Source of the DNA: Longimicrobiales bacterium
GTDB lineage: Bacteria > Gemmatimonadota > Gemmatimonadetes > Longimicrobiales > Gaopeijiaceae
NCBI GenBank assembly: GCA_965248195.1
Contig: CBDFIQ010000002.1
Location: 3,136,001 to 3,200,000, forward strand
Reading direction: 5' to 3'
DNA length: 64,000 bases
Part shown: positions 18,001-24,000 of the stretch, one piece after another
How positions within the stretch are numbered: position 1 is the first letter of the stretch
How the letters are laid out: each line of letters opens with the position of its first letter
Made by a program: the position numbers

Positions 18001-21000
18001 CCGGCACCTCCATCTCCAGGTTCGGCCAGTGATCCAGCTCGTTCGCCGGCACCAGGTACCGGGGGGAAGCAAGCACGATGTCCGGCGGGCGACCGAAACG
18101 CTCGGCGTATTGCCAGTCGTTCTCAAACGAGGCCCATTCGATCAGGGGCGGCATGTGCGCTGGATCCCCCATCGGCGCACCCGAGTCGACCCAATGCAAG
18201 ATGGTCTGGATCTCGTCGTCACTCAGGGAAACGTCGTTTTTGAATTCCTGGATCCCGATCGTGTGATCCAATGGCCAGGGCGGCATGGTCCGGCTCGCCA
18301 CCTTCTCCCTGATCAGTGGTGCGAAGGGGCGAACCTCGTCATAAGAGGTCAAGGGCATGGGCGCGATGGAGCCGTCGCGATGGCATGTTTGGCACTTATC
18401 CTGGAGGATCGGCGCCACGTCTCTCGTGAAGGTGACCAGGCCGTCGGATTGCTGCCCAGAAACAGGCCCCGGATAGACAGCCATAGAGGCCCCGAAGACC
18501 AACGCAAACAATCCTAGCCCCCCGAGCGCCCTCGAACCCCGTTGTAACCTGCCGATTCCGCTCTTCATGGTCCTGGCCTCCTTGCTCTCCGCCGAACGGT
18601 GAGAGTCATCTCTGTCTATCCACAAATACGAGTGGACATCCATAAAAAGTGCACATCCATAATAGATGACGAGCTGCGGTATGACGAGCCCCCTTTTGCG
18701 ATCACCCTCCCAGGCACACGACTCACGGCGTACCCAGCGGAAGACCACGCTCCGTGAACACCTCCGCCGCAACCCGAGCCGCATTGGATCCGGTCGGCCA
18801 CCCGGCGTAGAAGGTCACGTGCGTAATGATCTCTTGGATTTCTTCCTGGGTCACCCCGTTGTTCAGTGCCCGGCCGATGTGTCCCCGCAGCTGGTCCGTT
18901 GCGTAGGACGCCTGAGCCACCGCCACCGTGATCATGCTGCGGTCCCGTGGCGACAAGACCGGACGGGCCCAGATGCCGTCCACCTCGTCATACAGAAGGC
19001 TCCTGGTCAACGCGGAGAGGTACGGAATGGCCGGATATCCGGGGTTCCCCCCTCGTAAATCGATTCGGAGGTCGACCGGCTCTACTGGCGGGGGAAAGGC
19101 CAGGCCCCGTCTTTCGTACACATCCGTCGCCACTCGAGACGCATTGGACGCCGAGGGCCAGCCGGCGTACATGGCTACGTGCGTCATGAGCCCGGAGATC
19201 TCTTCCCGTGTCACACCATCGTCGAGCGCACGGCCTAAATACTCCCGCAATTCCTCGGTGCGGTAGAGAGCCTGCGTTACCGCTACGGTCACCAGACCGC
19301 GGTCCCGTCGGGAAAGTCCGGGACGCTCCCAGATGTCCCCGAAGAGAAGGCTGCTTTCCAGCTCCGAGAGATAAGGCGCGGCCGGGTACCGAGCGCCTCC
19401 AGCCTGCTGCGCCGACCTCGATGCGGACACCGGCCCGGCGTTCGCTTCCGTGACGTTCCGAGCACCCCCGTCCCCACATCCCGAAGTGAAGGCCATTCCA
19501 GCCAAGGTGAGGGTCGATAGGATCGTGCCCGAGCGGGTCATTGTCTGCTCCTATTCGGGGATTACTGGCTTCCGACTACGATTACTAGCTTCCGACTACA
19601 TGGAAACGAGGTAGGTCGCCTTGATGATGAGCCGGCGGTCCCGGAACTCCTGAGCGACGGGAATGCCGTTGATGTCCCGGCGTACCTCATCGTAGACAAC
19701 GTAGAGATCACTTCCGGGACGATAGATGTAGCGGAAGCGAACGCTCGTGCTCCACTGCTCGGTTGAAGAGTTGTACTGCGTCAGCGTCCGGAGGCTCAGG
19801 GTCGGAGAGAACGTGTAGTCGACCCGGAGGGAGCCGAGCTGGGTCACGAAGTCTCCAACCGGGAGGTCCACGTCGTTCCGGGCGTATTGTACTGCCGTCG
19901 AGAACTTGGAGGTAATCCGGGATCCGAGACTCAGCGAGAGATCCTTACGGTTCCCACCGTAGAAACCCTGAGGACGGTAGGTGATGCCGTAGCTGACCTG
20001 TCGGGATGGATCGCTGTTGAAGCCGATTCTCATGTCGTAGAAGTTGTATTTCCCGGCGGGGATGGAGATGCCCTGTAGAGAAAACGGCGCGTCCAGACGT
20101 TCGAAGTCGTCGTTGTAAACGAAGGTGAAGCTCGCGCTGTTCTCGAACGTGACCCGGATCATGTGGTGCAACTCTCGGTATACGAGCCGTCCGGCCTGGT
20201 CCGTCGTAAGGACCACATGCCACATCGGCGTCATTACCCGAATCCCCCAAAAATCCGGCCTGGGGGTCCGATTGATATGGAACTTGGTCGAGCGGACGCC
20301 GACCCGGGGCACGAAGCCCACCTCCGCGTTGAAGTTGTCCCCGAGGTCAATGTGGTCGAAATAGATGTCCCAGGAGTCGCTCAGCCAATGGGCCCGGAAA
20401 TAACCTGCGCGGTCCTCCGAAGAGATTTCCGGAGTCTCGGTCTGGGCCAGGAACCCATTGATCCGTAGGCTCGAACCGAACGCGAGCGCGGCATCTGCTG
20501 CGTAGGTGCGGTTGTAGTCCCCACCGCTCGTAGCCTGCCGGTTGATCAGGATCGCCCCCACCTTCGAACGGCTCAGGATGTCACGGCTATAACGTGTCAC
20601 CAGGAAGTTCTGTCCGGGTTGGCCGAACGCGTCGTCGGTCTGGATGTTCATCACCGCGACGTCATTCTGCCCCACCTTCCCAGTCATTCTTGCCCCGGCA
20701 ATGATCGGAACCTGTCCGCCGCTTTCATCAAGTCCGATGCGGCGGGTGAAGAAGAGGTCGGCCCGCTGGCCCGTGCCCGTCGTCCCCACGTTGAACTGGC
20801 CGGCGTTTTCCAGGAAGAAGTCCCTCTTCTCCGGGAAGAAGAGAGGGAAGCGCGTCAAGTTCACCTGCTCGTTGTCTGCTTCTGCCTGCGCAAAATCCGT
20901 GTTGAAGGTCAGATCGAGGTTCAGGCTCGGGGTGATCCCGTATTTGAGATCGAGGCCTATATCGCGGGAGATCGACCGGGTCGACACCCCCTCGCTGCGC

Positions 21001-24000
21001 TCAGCCTCGCCTCCCGCCGCCACGAAAGGTTTGATTCGCAAATCCCGGCCCCGGCTGAGGCCCTCGAGTCCGCTCAGCGTGCCCGCGAGGCTCACCCGAG
21101 TGAGCCCGTAGGGGAGCGGAATCGGGGCCCAGAACACCACCTCGTTCCGATGAGGGATGTTCCGCATGAAGTTGATCCCCCACGACTGGGGGCTCACGCT
21201 GGGGAACCGGAGGGTAACCATCGGGATTCGAATCTCTGCAACCCACCCCTCAGGGGTCCTGCGCGCGGACGCATCCCAGACCCCGTCCCACTCCAGATTT
21301 ATGTTCGACGAGGTGCCACGCCGCGTCCCTTCGCCCTCCCGAGAGACCTGCTGGTCCAGCATCGCTCCGAGCGGGCTCACGACGAACATGTACGCAGAAT
21401 TGGAGTCCATGAACGTGTCGAGGATGATCTGGAAGCTGTCCTCGTTCATGATCTGGCGCCCGTCCCGTCGCATCTCGGTGGCGGTGACACGTTGCGGAGA
21501 GGAATCGAAAGCGAGGACGCCTACGTAGAGGTTCGCCCCGTCGAAGAGCACGCGAACCTCGGTCCGTTCCGTGGCAGGGGCACCCTCCAGGGGCTCCTGC
21601 TGGACGAACTCGTCGATCAGTGCGGCTTGTCCCCATACCTGGTCGTCCAGGACGCCGTCGATGACCGGACCCTGCTCGACCCGCACGGCAGGGAGCTGGT
21701 ACCGCTCACGGTTGGTCTCGGCCGGGGAAGTGGCGGCGGGCTCCACGAGCGCGCCCCTCGAGCGTTCTTCGTCAGTAGTGACCTGTGCCCATGCTGGGAG
21801 CGCAGTCACAGCCAACAGGAGACCGGTCGCGAGCGGTGCGGTGCGACAGCGGACGCTGCAACGCCGGGAAGCGTTTACTCGGGAAGCGCTTACGGTAAAC
21901 TCCGGGTGAGGTTGACTCAAAGGCTAGTCTAAAAGACTAGTCGCTTCTCTTGCCCAAGAACAGCGTCGCCGGCCTGAGGTTTTCGCGGAGCACAGAGCCG
22001 CCGTACCTGATCTTGACGCTGTGGCCCGGATGATCTCTTTTTGCCAATCGGTGGATCCCGGAAGCTGAGGGCGCCGATCCGAGAAGCATGAAGCTGGCAC
22101 CGTTCTTCCGATCTTGACCATGGCCAACAGTCTGAAGTCGCGCTCCGTGGATCGCCCTTACCGGATCATCTTCATCGTCTGTGCGGTGATCACGGTCGGC
22201 GCGGGGGTCCTCCGGAGCCCGGCCGTAGACGAGGATTTGAGGGAGCACCTTCCCGAGCAGGCGACCGGGCAAGGGTTCACGACCTCGGTCACGTGCCAGG
22301 CATGCCATCCGGCTCAATACGACGCTTGGCACCGTTCCTACCATCGGACTATGACCCAAGTGGCGACGCCGTCCACGGTGCTGGGAAATTTCGATGACAT
22401 GGTCCTCGAGGACCGTGGCTTCCAGTATCGATTCGAGCGCCGGGACGACGAAATCTGGGTCGAGATCCCCGACCCACTCTGGTTCGAGAACCCACCCTGG
22501 TTCATGCAGATCATCGACCCCGACTGGCCCGAGACGCCACCGCGGATCGAGGCGCGGGTGGTGATGGCCACGGGCTCTCATCACATGCAAAACTACTGGA
22601 TGCGCCGACCGGCCGGGGGAGAGGGATCTCTGAGGCCTGATAATGGAGCACTCGTTCAGCTTCCCTGGATTTGGCTGATCCAGGAGGAGAGATGGATTCC
22701 GAATCAGGATTCGTTTATCTCCCCCCCGAGGCCCTCTATTGAGGGGCCTGCTCTATGGAACGCGAACTGCTCTCAGTGCCATTCGGTCGCGACCGAGCCG
22801 CGGACTACGGAGCGCTTCGACCGTTTCGACACCCGGACGGTGGAGTTGGGCATCGCGTGTGAGGCCTGTCACGGTCCGGCCGAGGAACACGTCCGTTTCT
22901 ATCAGTCACCGGTGCGGCGTTACCTGCAGTACTTTCGCACGTTGCGGGGCCAGGATGCCCCCGATCCGACGATCGCCAACCCGGCAAAGCTCGACCCGCG
23001 GCGCTCCGTCGAGACGTGCGCTCAATGTCACAGCTTCGGAAAGTGGCGAGACCAGGAGGGATTCAGGAGGAGTGGAGTCCCCTTCCGTCCGGGAGATGAG
23101 CTGGAGGAGCACAGGTCGGTGTTCCGCTACACGGAAGATCCCGAAGATCCACTGTTGCTGGAAATGTTGGAGACCGAACCCCTCGCCCTCGACGGCAGGT
23201 TTTGGCGCGACGGAACCATTCGGGTCGCGGGGCGGGAGTACAACGGGCTCCTCGAATCCCCGGGTCACACCGATGAGCTGACGTGTCTATCGTGCCATTC
23301 GATGCACGAATACGAGGCGCCGGACAGGCAGCTCGATCCCAATGTCACCGGAGACCGATCGTGTCTGGGTTGCCATACGGACTATGCGGATGAGATCTCG
23401 GAGCACACTCGCCACCTTCCCGAGTCCTCTGGTAGCGAGTGTATGAATTGTCACATGCCGCACACGACCTACGGCCTCTTTTCCGCCATGCGCAGTCATC
23501 GGATCGACAATCCGAGCGCTCGGGTTTCGCTGCAGAGTGGGCGTCCTAATGCATGCAACCTCTGCCACCTCAATGAGACCCTGGAGTGGACGAGCCAATA
23601 CCTCAACGAATGGTACGGGCAGCCTCTCGTGGAGATGGGCGAGGATGAGCGATCGATCGCCGCCTCAATCCTTTGGGTCATGAAGGGGGACGCGGTTCAA
23701 CGGACAATCCTTGGTTGGCACATGGGATGGGATGCGGCTCGGGAGGCCTCCGACCCGACCTGGATGGCTCCGTATCTGGCGCAACTTCTCGTGGATCCAT
23801 ATTCCGCGACCCGGCAGGTGGCGTATCGATCCATTGGCAGCCTCCCGGGCTTTCAAGACTTCGAATACGACTATATCGCCTCCCGTTCGGAACGTGAAGG
23901 AAAGGCCGAAGAGGCCATACAGCGTTGGCTCGTGGCCGGCGGACCGGCGAGGGTCGGGGCTCATCTTCTCATCGCCGAGGACGCCAGGATCTACATCGAC

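What a model noticed while it worked through the whole genome (the two positions that open the first line are those of the whole stretch)
19596..21746. DUF5916 is a ~24-strand outer-membrane beta-barrel with an N-terminal CBM9-fold domain, multiplied to 26 genes
The uncharacterised family DUF5916 (27 gene calls = 25 intact genes of 710-950 aa plus one gene split in two, g01263/g01264; 12 also hit CBM9_1) folds as an N-terminal CBM9-type beta-sandwich of ~200 residues joined to a very large antiparallel beta-barrel of about 24 long strands, the size class of usher and LptD barrels and larger than TonB-dependent receptors; no Plug domain. I read it as a new class of outer-membrane channel whose sugar-binding-type domain acts as cap or plug. 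The genes are mostly monocistronic; 7 of the 26 loci lie within two genes of a periplasmic propeller enzyme gene (PQQ dehydrogenase, GSDH, PAL-like NHL).
Evidence so far: AlphaFold2 model of g04304 from 14 paralogs (28-60% identical): mean pLDDT 80.4, pTM 0.80; DSSP: beta-sandwich at 17-227 and 24 strands of 9-19 residues between 236 and 711. Foldseek against the PDB: N-domain matches CBM9 of T. maritima Xyn10A (1I82, E 4e-8, TM 0.71 on target) and 7NWN (TM 0.72); the rest matches only outer-membrane barrels (OccAB3, Cir, LptD, OpdQ, FimD, AlgE, FhuA; 249 matches at E<=0.001; TM on query 0.2-0.33, so same class, no close template). Counts and neighbours: calls 126, 127. Family in 1942 of 2019 Gemmatimonadota genomes but 13% of bacteria (relatives.tsv, call 127). 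A hydrophobic signal-like N-terminus in 16 of 27 calls. No paper in the library holds 'DUF5916'.
(Added by a program. Inside this text positions count along the whole contig: contig position 3,136,001 is position 1 of the stretch shown here. "Call 12" and the like, gene names such as g00115 and contig names such as C1 are that model's own, and its searches are not shown. The text may have been shortened before it was handed on; [...] marks where a part breaks off. The agent that wrote the report below was given it as the finding of a first reader that could run no searches.)

Follow-up and report, generated by a model that had tools for sequence, protein, structure and literature searches.

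The report
Self-corked 24-strand outer-membrane barrel family
This gene is one of 26 copies of a very widespread but never-studied bacterial outer-membrane protein, predicted to be a large barrel closed from the inside of the cell envelope by its own sugar-binding-type domain; what passes through it is still unknown.

Summary
The gene is window 19596..21920 (-), 774 aa from a TTG.

It carries DUF5916 and CBM9_1. The genome has 26 such loci, one of them split.

A new AlphaFold2 model is very confident (pLDDT 92.7, pTM 0.91). It shows a CBM9-fold sandwich, 24 barrel strands, and a 66-residue non-strand insert after strand 3 that holds most of the invariant residues.

A separate two-chain prediction scored 0.85 (best control 0.01). 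It places the N-domain against all 11 turns on the side of both termini, and against the insert. So the domain corks the periplasmic mouth and is not exposed on the cell surface.

There is no Plug domain, and none of the TonB-box motif that this genome's own TonB receptors carry.

The family is present in 290 of 301 sampled genomes of the phylum, and no paper names it. The link to periplasmic dehydrogenases is a within-genome enrichment only (10 of 26 loci within 5 kb, 3.7 expected). It is absent around all 8 close orthologues.

Transport is still inference. This scan has already noted the family on other DNA in at least 15 genomes.

The parts
19596..21920 (-). Whole coding sequence of the DUF5916/CBM9_1 protein (774 aa, TTG start, stop included)
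   Evidence: ORF. Pfam. Start supported by orthologues.
21786..21920 (-). Signal peptide, residues 1-45 (...TAPLATGLLLAVTALPAWA|QV).
   Evidence: Read from the sequence. The same ALPAWAQ site is in orthologues L029, L030, L031, L034 and L035. No SignalP was run.
21717..21785 (-). Low-confidence acidic/Pro/Ala-rich N-terminal tail of the mature protein (mature residues 1-23)
   Evidence: pLDDT 45-54. Variable among orthologues.
21063..21716 (-). CBM9/DOMON-fold beta-sandwich (mature residues 24-241), predicted to cork the periplasmic mouth of the barrel
   Evidence: CBM9_1 at 34 bits. 4jpq_B Z 21.4 (rmsd 2.7, 196 aligned); 1i82_A Z 20.5 (rmsd 2.4, 177 aligned). Family profile against 1i82, E 6.6e-4. 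Interface.
19599..21041 (-). 24-strand beta-barrel (mature residues 249-729)
   Evidence: DSSP of the AF2 model. 11 turns plus both termini touch the N-domain. Amphipathic strands. Only outer-membrane barrels match.
20706..20903 (-). Conserved 66-residue non-strand insert after strand 3 (mature residues 295-360). Motif N-T-D-F-x-Q-x-E-x-D ... N-L-x-R-F ... F-P-E-K-R-x-F-F-x-E ... F-[ST]-R-R-I-G. It is the part of the protein that the Pfam DUF5916 profile recognises.
   Evidence: Holds 8 of the 12 invariant columns. Mean conservation 0.67, against 0.41-0.50 elsewhere. The same motif is in the long-form alignment. Residues 318-337 touch the N-domain. pLDDT is only about 61 at 301-320.
28966..31203 (-). 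Second DUF5916/CBM9_1 paralogue in the window (745 aa from ATG)
   Evidence: Signal-like N-terminus.
21922..21942 (.). Palindrome with 9-bp arms, directly 5' of the TTG start
   Evidence: Poorly conserved in orthologues. Meaning unknown.

Best explanation
ARCHITECTURE. The gene encodes a Sec-exported outer-membrane protein of the catalogued but unstudied family DUF5916. After signal-peptide cleavage, a short disordered tail leads into a CBM9/DOMON-fold beta-sandwich of about 218 residues. A 7-residue linker joins it to a 24-strand beta-barrel.

In the predicted structure the sandwich sits in the barrel mouth on the side of both termini. By the rule that holds for known outer-membrane barrels, that is the periplasmic side. 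The sandwich touches all 11 turns there. A 66-residue, very conserved loop after strand 3 folds in from the opposite (outer) side and reaches down to touch the sandwich. The barrel is therefore closed by two of its own parts.

FUNCTION (inference). I read it as a self-corked channel that lets small solutes through the outer membrane when the cork or the loop moves. The 26 old paralogues (24-66% identical) would serve different solutes, as families of TonB-dependent receptors and specific porins do. It stands alone genetically and lacks the TonB box of this genome's own receptors, so gating is probably not TonB-driven.

SHOWN VERSUS INFERRED. Shown by sequence: export signal, family membership, copy number, distribution. 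Predicted: fold, 24 strands, cork position. Inferred: transport, gating, cargo.
For: - Signal peptide and start.
- Family. There are 23,791 cluster representatives at E<=0.001.
- Fold: AF2 pLDDT 92.7, pTM 0.91, 24 strands.
- N-domain matches: 4jpq_B Z 21.4 and 1i82_A Z 20.5. Barrel matches: only outer-membrane barrels (MtrB 15.9, PapC 15.8, FimD 15.5, Cir 15.3, which are ties).
- Cork position: ESMFold2 two-chain run, score 0.85 (three runs 0.86/0.85/0.82), best of 3 controls 0.01. That mark was reached by 116 of 157 solved complexes and 2 of 215 mismatched pairs. The counts hold only roughly, because my own alignment was used. The runs agree in at least 85% of contacts and the partner pLDDT is at least 85. 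The contacts fall on residues 248-250, on every even-to-odd strand turn, on 726/728, and on insert residues 318-337.
- About 20 TonB-receptor alignments start at model residue ~150-159 or ~296-302 and at plug residues of the chain. So the sandwich and the insert occupy plug-equivalent space.
- Strands are amphipathic: family-mean hydropathy is 1.45 outward against -1.16 inward, and 18 of 24 strands are at or above 1.0. Termini-side turns are short and gap-free.
- A long-form paralogue folds to the same plan.
- No Plug domain or other family in 27 of 27 ORFs. TonB-box pattern in 0 of 27.
- No conserved neighbour.
- 26 loci against 36 Plug-domain hits (TonB-type receptor genes and fragments) in the same genome.
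Against: - Everything structural is prediction; no member has been studied.
- Predicted interface residues are no more conserved than the rest (N-domain 0.51 against 0.50, permutation p 0.44; barrel side 0.46 against 0.45).
- Lipid-facing hydrophobicity is weak on strands 10-12, 16 and 24 (0.37-0.89). I ran no control on a known barrel.
- The most conserved stretch (301-320) is modelled with low confidence (about 61; below 50 in the long form). The state of the lumen is therefore uncertain.
- Nothing shows passage of any solute, and no energy source or opening trigger is identified.
- The long-form strand count (about 24-26) is not resolved.
Confidence: 0.5

Rival explanations
1. Entry port that feeds periplasmic dehydrogenases. 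The paralogues admit the sugars or alcohols that the genome's many PQQ- and GSDH-type propeller enzymes oxidise in the periplasm. This is the first reader's suggested link, and it is a special case of the channel reading.
For: - The genome holds about 45 PQQ-dehydrogenase and 11 GSDH genes.
- 10 of 26 DUF5916 loci lie within 5 kb of one, against 3.7 expected, p about 0.002. TonB-receptor genes show no such excess (6 of 27, 4.3 expected, p 0.26).
- 7 of 26 loci have a propeller-enzyme gene within two ORFs.
- One locus (C1:1204772) sits between a PQQ dehydrogenase and a 3-keto-disaccharide hydrolase plus an FAD oxidoreductase.
Against: - Only 2 of 26 lie within 1 kb (1.8 expected), so there are no operons.
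- None of the 8 close orthologues of the window gene has a PQQ/GSDH gene within about 10 kb. Over all 36 related loci, 5 have one in 410 kb of flank, which is about the background density of this genome.
- 16 of 26 loci have no such neighbour.
Confidence: 0.15
2. Export or secretion pore for a polymer or protein, like ushers, LptD, AlgE or PgaA. The sandwich would handle the substrate on the periplasmic side.
For: - The barrel size matches ushers (24 strands). PapC, FimD and LptD are among the best barrel matches, and AlgE matches the long form.
- An earlier, untested note of this scan places a relative in a glycan gene cluster (e1-1225497).
Against: - 26 stand-alone paralogues with unrelated neighbours and no conserved partner.
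- Exporters normally sit in operons with their machinery.
- No Pfam hit to the usher, LptD or alginate-export families.
Confidence: 0.1
3. A non-transport outer-membrane protein. It could be a structural or anchoring barrel, or a periplasm-facing binding or sensing module (for example for cell-wall glycan) held in the membrane by a permanently closed barrel.
For: - The lumen is predicted closed twice over.
- The outer loops are very short (2-15 residues).
- Very large barrels of SlpA/SDBC type appear among the matches.
- A periplasmic CBM9-like domain has been proposed, not shown, to sense peptidoglycan fragments in the kinase PghK (10.1101/2023.05.05.539549, passages read).
- Untested notes of this scan report SPOR- and BlaI-linked relatives.
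Against: - 26 diverged copies per genome is unusual for a structural protein.
- A strongly conserved charged loop inside the barrel suggests a working part.
- The canonical face of the sandwich is predicted buried against the barrel and the insert.
Confidence: 0.15
4. Outer-membrane enzyme or metal-binding site. The invariant acidic and basic residues of the insert (D297, E302, D304, E319, R321, E326, R348) would form a catalytic or Ca2+/metal site.
For: - 8 of the 12 invariant columns lie in the insert, and the motif is shared by both subfamilies.
- The stretch is conserved yet modelled with low confidence, as for sites that need a ligand.
Against: - No invariant Ser/His/Cys nucleophile.
- No match to any enzyme family.
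- Such charged clusters also lock plugs to barrels in TonB receptors (recalled, not tested).
Confidence: 0.07
5. Porin-cytochrome-type electron conduit working with the neighbouring octahaem cytochrome c.
For: - MtrB (6r2q_B) is nominally the top barrel match (Z 15.9, rmsd 4.5, 385 aligned), but it is tied with PapC, FimD and Cir.
- An octahaem cytochrome gene lies divergently 194 bp away.
- Haem-b DOMON proteins match the N-domain (2ivf_C Z 14.6, 7b04_C Z 13.5).
Against: - The cytochrome is absent near all 8 close orthologues.
- There is no near-invariant His, Met or Lys in the N-domain to ligate haem.
- The lumen is filled by the protein's own parts.
Confidence: 0.03

Closest known systems
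TonB-dependent transporters (FhuA, BtuB, Cir, SusC)
   Same: A large outer-membrane barrel closed from the periplasmic side by the protein's own N-terminal domain. Many diverged paralogues per genome. Structural alignments put the sandwich and the insert where the plug lies.
   Different: 24 strands, not 22. The closing domain is a ~218-residue CBM9/DOMON sandwich seated at the rim, not a Plug domain deep in the lumen. There is a second closure by an in-folded loop. No Plug or TonB_dep_Rec Pfam hit. None of this genome's TonB-box motif (0 of 27). The outer loops are very short.
Chaperone-usher pore (FimD, PapC)
   Same: A 24-strand barrel with an internal plug; Z 15.5-15.8.
   Different: The usher plug is an insertion between strands, and ushers carry further periplasmic domains and sit in pilus operons. 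None of this is seen here.
LptD
   Same: An N-terminal beta-sandwich-type domain joined directly to a very large barrel. Among the highest TM scores on query (up to 0.33).
   Different: LptD has 26 strands. Its jellyroll projects into the periplasm, and the lumen is plugged by a separate lipoprotein (LptE). Here the sandwich itself closes the barrel. No LptD Pfam hit.
CBM9 of Thermotoga maritima Xyn10A (1i82) and BACUNI_03838 (4jpq)
   Same: Same fold (Z 20.5 and 21.4). Weak profile-level sequence relation to 1i82 (E 6.6e-4).
   Different: Not attached to a glycoside hydrolase. Predicted periplasmic and packed against a barrel. The position aligned with the 1i82 tryptophan W72 is not aromatic in the family consensus. 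That this tryptophan is part of the sugar clamp is recalled, not tested.
Pfam PF19313 (DUF5916), named by NCBI 'DUF5916 domain-containing protein' or 'carbohydrate binding family 9 domain-containing protein'
   Same: This protein is a member. The names are seen.
   Different: It belongs to a short subfamily (about 730-830 aa), in which only strands 1-3 and the insert match the profile. The profile was evidently built on the long form (870-970 aa).

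Membership tests
Pfam DUF5916 (PF19313) | HMM score over the gathering cut-off | tested here: met
   68.8 bits against 22.6, but only profile positions 5-97 of 572. Full-length homology to family members is shown by phmmer: 4,327 representatives at E<=1e-30.
Pfam DUF5916 (PF19313) | Usual architecture: an N-terminal CBM9_1 domain before the DUF5916 region | tested here: met
   CBM9_1 at residues 87-254, DUF5916 from residue 294. 19 of 27 paralogous ORFs show both at E<=0.001.
CBM9 (Pfam CBM9_1, PF06452; CAZy CBM9) | Sequence and fold of the CBM9 beta-sandwich | tested here: met
   34.0 bits against 23.4. 1i82_A Z 20.5, rmsd 2.4, 177 aligned. Family profile against 1i82, E 6.6e-4.
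CBM9 (Pfam CBM9_1, PF06452; CAZy CBM9) | Aromatic clamp that binds sugar reducing ends | tested here: inconclusive
   Chain W72 of 1i82 aligns with a non-aromatic consensus position. The second clamp residue lies outside the alignment. The identity of the clamp residues is recalled.
CBM9 (Pfam CBM9_1, PF06452; CAZy CBM9) | Appended to a carbohydrate-active enzyme | tested here: not met
   No catalytic domain in this protein or in any of the 27 paralogous ORFs.
TonB-dependent transporter | Plug domain (PF07715) and TonB_dep_Rec barrel | tested here: not met
   No hit in 27 of 27 ORFs. The same model finds 36 places elsewhere in this genome.
TonB-dependent transporter | TonB box ahead of the closing domain | tested here: not met
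   The genome's own receptors mostly carry ...LDEI[IV]VTGT.... A strict and a loose pattern found 0 of 27 in the first 260 residues. A divergent box cannot be excluded.
TonB-dependent transporter | 22-strand barrel | tested here: not met
   24 strands by DSSP and by the 11 contacted turns plus both termini. Prediction only.
Chaperone-usher pore | Usher Pfam family, and chaperone and pilin genes alongside | tested here: not met
   No usher hit. No such neighbours at any of the 26 loci.
LptD | LptD/OstA families; 26 strands; LptE plug | tested here: not met
   No Pfam hit. 24 strands. The lumen is closed by the protein's own domain. An LptE-like partner was not searched for.
Haem-b DOMON (ethylbenzene dehydrogenase gamma, NxrC) | Conserved axial haem ligands (Met/Lys or Met/His; recalled) | tested here: not met
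   The fold is related (2ivf_C Z 14.6, 7b04_C Z 13.5). But no His, Met or Lys is among the 27 columns of the N-domain conserved at 90% or more.
MtrB-type porin-cytochrome complex | Barrel gene kept next to multihaem cytochrome genes | tested here: not met
   The octahaem neighbour has no homologue within about 10 kb of any of the 8 close orthologues.

The most novel reading that the evidence does not exclude
DUF5916 is a third major class of outer-membrane nutrient gate, beside porins and TonB-dependent receptors. It would be a TonB-independent 24-strand barrel that is double-locked by a periplasmic CBM9-fold cork and a conserved in-folded acidic loop, and it would open on ligand binding. In Gemmatimonadota, Acidobacteriota and several other non-model phyla it would be a main route by which substrates reach the periplasm, including those of the greatly expanded periplasmic dehydrogenases.
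Probability: 0.22. Interest if true: 0.85.

Novelty: new variant of a known kind. Interest (0 to 1): 0.6.

Why it matters
The family is very large: 23,791 cluster representatives at 50% identity. It is nearly universal in one phylum (290 of 301 sampled genomes) and was found in none of the 14 well-known control genomes searched. That absence may explain why nobody has studied it.

In this genome its 26 loci compare with 36 Plug-domain hits for TonB-type receptors, fragments included. So a large share of the predicted outer-membrane barrel repertoire here has no known function.

The predicted design differs from every solved plugged barrel: a barrel closed at the periplasmic rim by a carbohydrate-binding-type fold, plus an in-folded conserved loop. 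It is directly testable with a cork deletion in a bilayer, or with a structure. If these proteins are gates, they bear on how abundant soil and marine phyla feed.

Tried and rejected
SEARCHES THAT FOUND NOTHING
- Sequence search of the PDB with the single protein: only a chance Fab hit at E 0.46.
- NCBIfam: no family for either window copy.
- Literature: 'DUF5916' 0 papers. 'carbohydrate binding family 9' 0 papers. 'CBM9' + 'outer membrane' + 'beta-barrel': 5 papers held the terms and 4 were listed; none looked relevant from listing and abstract. PF19313 / IPR045670: 0 occurrences.
- IsItABarrel paper (PMC10629564): passages read. Its one held supplement file (41,694 characters) has no 'DUF5916', '5916', 'CBM9' or 'PF19313'. 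Its DUF tables S4-S6 may not be fully held, so this is weak.
- Preprint 10.1101/2022.10.09.511469: the passages read mention 24-strand barrels only as test cases.

STRUCTURE COMPARISON
- VIA-align against 48,161 chains gave no close template for the barrel. The best are MtrB, PapC, FimD and Cir at Z 15.3-15.9, all tied.
- The ESM Atlas returned only DUF5916 clusters.

NEIGHBOURHOOD
- tblastn of the window's neighbours against 36 related loci: only one 30%-identical PQQ hit, in L040.
- ORFs flanking orthologue L034 are shared with no other locus.
- A panel of 53 PQQ/GSDH proteins from this genome hit 5 of 36 loci.

OTHER CHECKS
- Interface residues are no more conserved than others.
- The upstream palindrome is not conserved.
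- The promoter scan found none; the two terminator-like sites are at chance level.
- Sampling other phyla through the 'of' parameter was not possible with a locus id, and I did not pursue it.
- No coordinates of the models are available. Domain placement rests on the contact list and the alignment ranges, not on measured distances.

Full report
**What is there**

Window 19596..21920 (-) is one intact ORF of 774 codons starting with TTG. They drop 58 codons that encode a typical export signal (...RCRTAPLATGLLLAVTALPAWA|QVTT).

No other ATG, GTG or TTG lies between 21920 and the hydrophobic segment. Orthologues in other Gemmatimonadota MAGs keep the same ALPAWAQ site, and the 88%-identical one (L034) also begins with TTG.

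Pfam finds DUF5916 (68.8 bits, cut-off 22.6) and CBM9_1 (34.0 bits, cut-off 23.4), and nothing else. The DUF5916 match covers only profile positions 5-97 of 572. NCBIfam has no model for it.

**Copy number**

PF19313 matches 28 places in the genome. These are 27 ORFs and 26 loci: one ORF is hit twice, and one gene is split into two overlapping frames.

- There are two subfamilies. Nine ORFs, mostly 870-970 aa, match most of the profile; one of them is the C-terminal piece of the split gene. A tenth long ORF (927 aa) matches it in two stretches. The 17 others, about 730-900 aa as called and including the window gene, match only the first ~100 positions. This holds apart from two intermediates, one of which is the window's second copy at 28966..31203 (-).
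- CBM9_1 is detected in 19 of 27 ORFs at E<=0.001, and in 17 at or over the cut-off, not 12.
- With ORFs read upstream of the called starts, 25 of 26 loci show a hydrophobic segment followed by an A-x-A/Q-like site. Most of the 'missing' signals were mis-called starts.
- Paralogues are 24-66% identical (median 33%). The window gene's nearest paralogue is 63% identical, while its orthologues elsewhere are 73-88%. The duplications are therefore old.

**Fold**

From 130 full-length homologues (33-56% identical to the query), AlphaFold2 gives mean pLDDT 92.7 and pTM 0.91. Numbering below is for the mature protein; add 45 for the precursor.

- Residues 1-23 are disordered.
- Residues 24-241 form a beta-sandwich.
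- A 7-residue linker follows, then 24 strands between 249 and 724.
- After strand 3 comes a 66-residue stretch (295-360) with no strands.

That stretch holds 8 of the 12 invariant columns of the alignment (D297, F298, D304, E319, R321, F324, R348, G351). It is the most conserved region (0.67, against 0.41-0.50 elsewhere). The same motif appears in the long subfamily, and it is what the Pfam profile recognises. Part of it (301-320) is nevertheless modelled with low confidence (about 61).

*Structural matches.* The sandwich matches BACUNI_03838 (4jpq_B, Z 21.4, rmsd 2.7, 196 aligned) and CBM9 of Xyn10A (1i82_A, Z 20.5, rmsd 2.4, 177 aligned). It matches haem-b DOMON subunits more weakly (2ivf_C Z 14.6, 7b04_C Z 13.5). 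The family profile also finds 1i82 by sequence (E 6.6e-4).

The barrel matches only outer-membrane barrels, and none closely. Foldseek TM on query is 0.2-0.34. VIA gives MtrB 15.9, PapC 15.8, FimD 15.5 and Cir 15.3, which are ties.

*Long-form paralogue.* One long paralogue (904 aa, 65 sequences) folds to the same plan at lower confidence (pLDDT 76.3, pTM 0.75). Its strand count, about 24-26, is not resolved.

**Where the sandwich sits**

I folded the barrel (246-729) and the N-domain (20-245) as two chains with a different predictor.

- Score 0.85 (runs 0.86, 0.85, 0.82); best of three controls 0.01. That mark was reached by 116 of 157 solved complexes and 2 of 215 mismatched pairs. The counts hold only roughly, because my own alignment was used.
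- The runs agree in at least 85% of contacts, and the partner pLDDT is at least 85.
- The model supports binding; it does not show it.

The barrel residues that touch the N-domain are 248/250 (start of strand 1), then 283-289, 369-373, 402-408, 433-443, 466-473, 507/516, 548/550, 593-596, 623-629, 656-664 and 687-691, then 726/728 (the C-terminus), and 318-337 of the insert.

Those are exactly the 11 turns between even and odd strands, plus both termini. This independently confirms 24 strands. It also shows the domain seated across the whole mouth on the termini side, inserted by only a few residues.

In all known outer-membrane barrels the termini are periplasmic (established knowledge). Here the termini-side turns are short (2-8 residues) and gap-free across the family, while the other side carries the longer loops.

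So the sandwich is a periplasmic cork, not a surface lectin. The insert, which starts on the outer side, reaches down through the lumen to touch it.

Consistent with this, about 20 TonB-receptor alignments begin at model residues ~150-159 or ~296-302 and at plug residues of the chain.

The near-invariant D127, G140, W166, W170 and R193 lie in the predicted interface, as do P318, E319, K320 and E326 of the insert. Against this, interface residues as a class are no more conserved than the rest (0.51 against 0.50, p 0.44).

**Is it a membrane barrel?**

For:
- The export signal.
- Amphipathic strands: family-mean hydropathy 1.45 outward against -1.16 inward, with 18 of 24 strands at or above 1.0.
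- A last strand with alternating hydrophobic residues.
- A sub-threshold OMP_b-brl hit in one relative (23.8 bits, cut-off 28.7).
- Only outer-membrane barrels match structurally.

Against:
- Strands 10-12, 16 and 24 are weakly hydrophobic.
- I had no positive control.

**What it is not**

- Not a TonB receptor. No Plug or receptor family in 27 of 27 ORFs, although the genome has 36 Plug hits. Most of this genome's full-length receptors carry ...LDEI[IV]VTGT... before the plug; neither a strict nor a loose pattern occurs in the first 260 residues of any DUF5916 ORF (0 of 27).
- Not a haem DOMON. No His, Met or Lys is among the N-domain columns conserved at 90% or more.
- Not a canonical CBM9. 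No enzyme is attached, and the position aligned with the 1i82 tryptophan W72 is non-aromatic in the consensus. That W72 is a clamp residue is recalled.

**Neighbours**

In the window the gene is followed, 54 bp downstream on the same strand, by a CMD-family gene. A divergent octahaem cytochrome c gene (8 CXXCH) lies on the other side, followed by a PQQ dehydrogenase.

- None of these neighbours recurs within about 10 kb of any of the 8 close orthologues. One more distant locus has a PQQ gene 1 kb away. No flanking ORF of orthologue L034 is shared with any other locus.
- Over the 26 own loci, the two nearest ORFs on each side (99 proteins, my own crude caller) are heterogeneous.
- The genome has about 45 PQQ-dehydrogenase and 11 GSDH genes. 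10 of 26 DUF5916 loci lie within 5 kb of one, against 3.7 expected from random placement on the same replicon (p about 0.002). Only 2 lie within 1 kb (1.8 expected).
- TonB-receptor genes show no such excess (6 of 27, 4.3 expected), and DUF5916 loci are not near TonB receptors.

So there is a real but loose, genome-specific co-location, not an operon and not conserved.

**Distribution and literature**

- phmmer over 1.84 billion representatives finds 23,791 at E<=0.001 and 4,327 at E<=1e-30.
- The family is in 290 of 301 sampled genomes of the phylum (122 of 127 genera) and in 0 of 14 control genomes. Four of the 301 are unpublished genomes, and all four had a match, so the count is 286 of 297 without them.
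- First-look candidate counts put this genome (31) at the top of the sample; most others have 1-18, and one has 26.
- Relatives occur in Acidobacteriota, Rhodothermales, Rudaea, Polyangiales and Eisenbacteria records. Some carry extra N-terminal domains: FlgO-like, beta-helix.
- Sources name the proteins only 'DUF5916 domain-containing', 'carbohydrate binding family 9 domain-containing' or 'hypothetical'.
- No paper in the library holds DUF5916, PF19313 or IPR045670.
- This scan noted the family before on other DNA, in at least 15 genomes. Those notes are leads, not evidence.

**Reading**

The architecture is well supported as a prediction. I put about 0.85 on an exported, outer-membrane, 24-strand barrel corked at the periplasmic mouth.

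The function is inferred. The most economical reading is a self-closed channel that opens for particular solutes, diversified by old duplication, standing alone genetically, and probably not TonB-driven.

The strongest alternatives are a permanently closed structural or periplasm-facing binding protein, and an export pore.

The feature most in need of explanation is the invariant charged loop inside the barrel. It is the family's signature, yet it is the least confidently modelled part.

Noticed in passing
whole genome (G000); in the window 24564-26429 (+): Very large expansion of periplasmic propeller dehydrogenases: about 45 PQQ-dehydrogenase genes and 11 GSDH-type genes in 4.86 Mb. Several NHL propellers are also in the window (14116-15960, 27547-28926).
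   Followed up: partly
window 22114-24057 (+): A 647-aa cytochrome c with eight CXXCH motifs and a hydrophobic N-terminus, directly upstream of the PQQ dehydrogenase on the same strand. It may be that enzyme's electron acceptor.
   Followed up: partly
window 21922-21942: Palindrome with 9-bp arms (GGCTAGTCT-AAA-AGACTAGTC), ending one base before the TTG start codon of the DUF5916 gene. It is only loosely similar in orthologues.
   Followed up: partly
G000:C1:1351969-1354474 (L008, L076): The one broken paralogue: two ORFs (390 and 514 codons, stop to stop) in different frames, overlapping by about 210 bases. This is either a frameshift or an assembly error.
   Followed up: no
G000:C1:1204772-1207168 and flanks (L073): This DUF5916 paralogue lies between a PQQ dehydrogenase and a 3-keto-disaccharide hydrolase plus an FAD-dependent oxidoreductase. 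The set looks like periplasmic glycoside oxidation.
   Followed up: no
P0088, P0120 (relatives): Some relatives carry extra N-terminal domains ahead of the CBM9-like domain: FlgO/DUF3280-like in P0088, and a right-handed beta-helix (NosD-like) in P0120.
   Followed up: no
G000 contigs C1 (1.50 Mb) and C2 (3.36 Mb): The smaller replicon carries about twice the density of DUF5916 loci (8.7 against 3.9 per Mb) and of PQQ/GSDH genes (16.7 against 9.2 per Mb).
   Followed up: no
G000:C2:2820993-2822746: A full-length PQQ-dehydrogenase match is interrupted by one in-frame TGA. It could be a pseudogene, a sequencing error or recoding; I did not examine it. It lies about 3.5 kb from two tandem DUF5916 paralogues.
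   Followed up: no
window 26531-27706 (-): A DUF1028 protein (212 bits) lies between the PQQ dehydrogenase and an NHL propeller gene. A same-size ORF on the opposite strand has no family.
   Followed up: no
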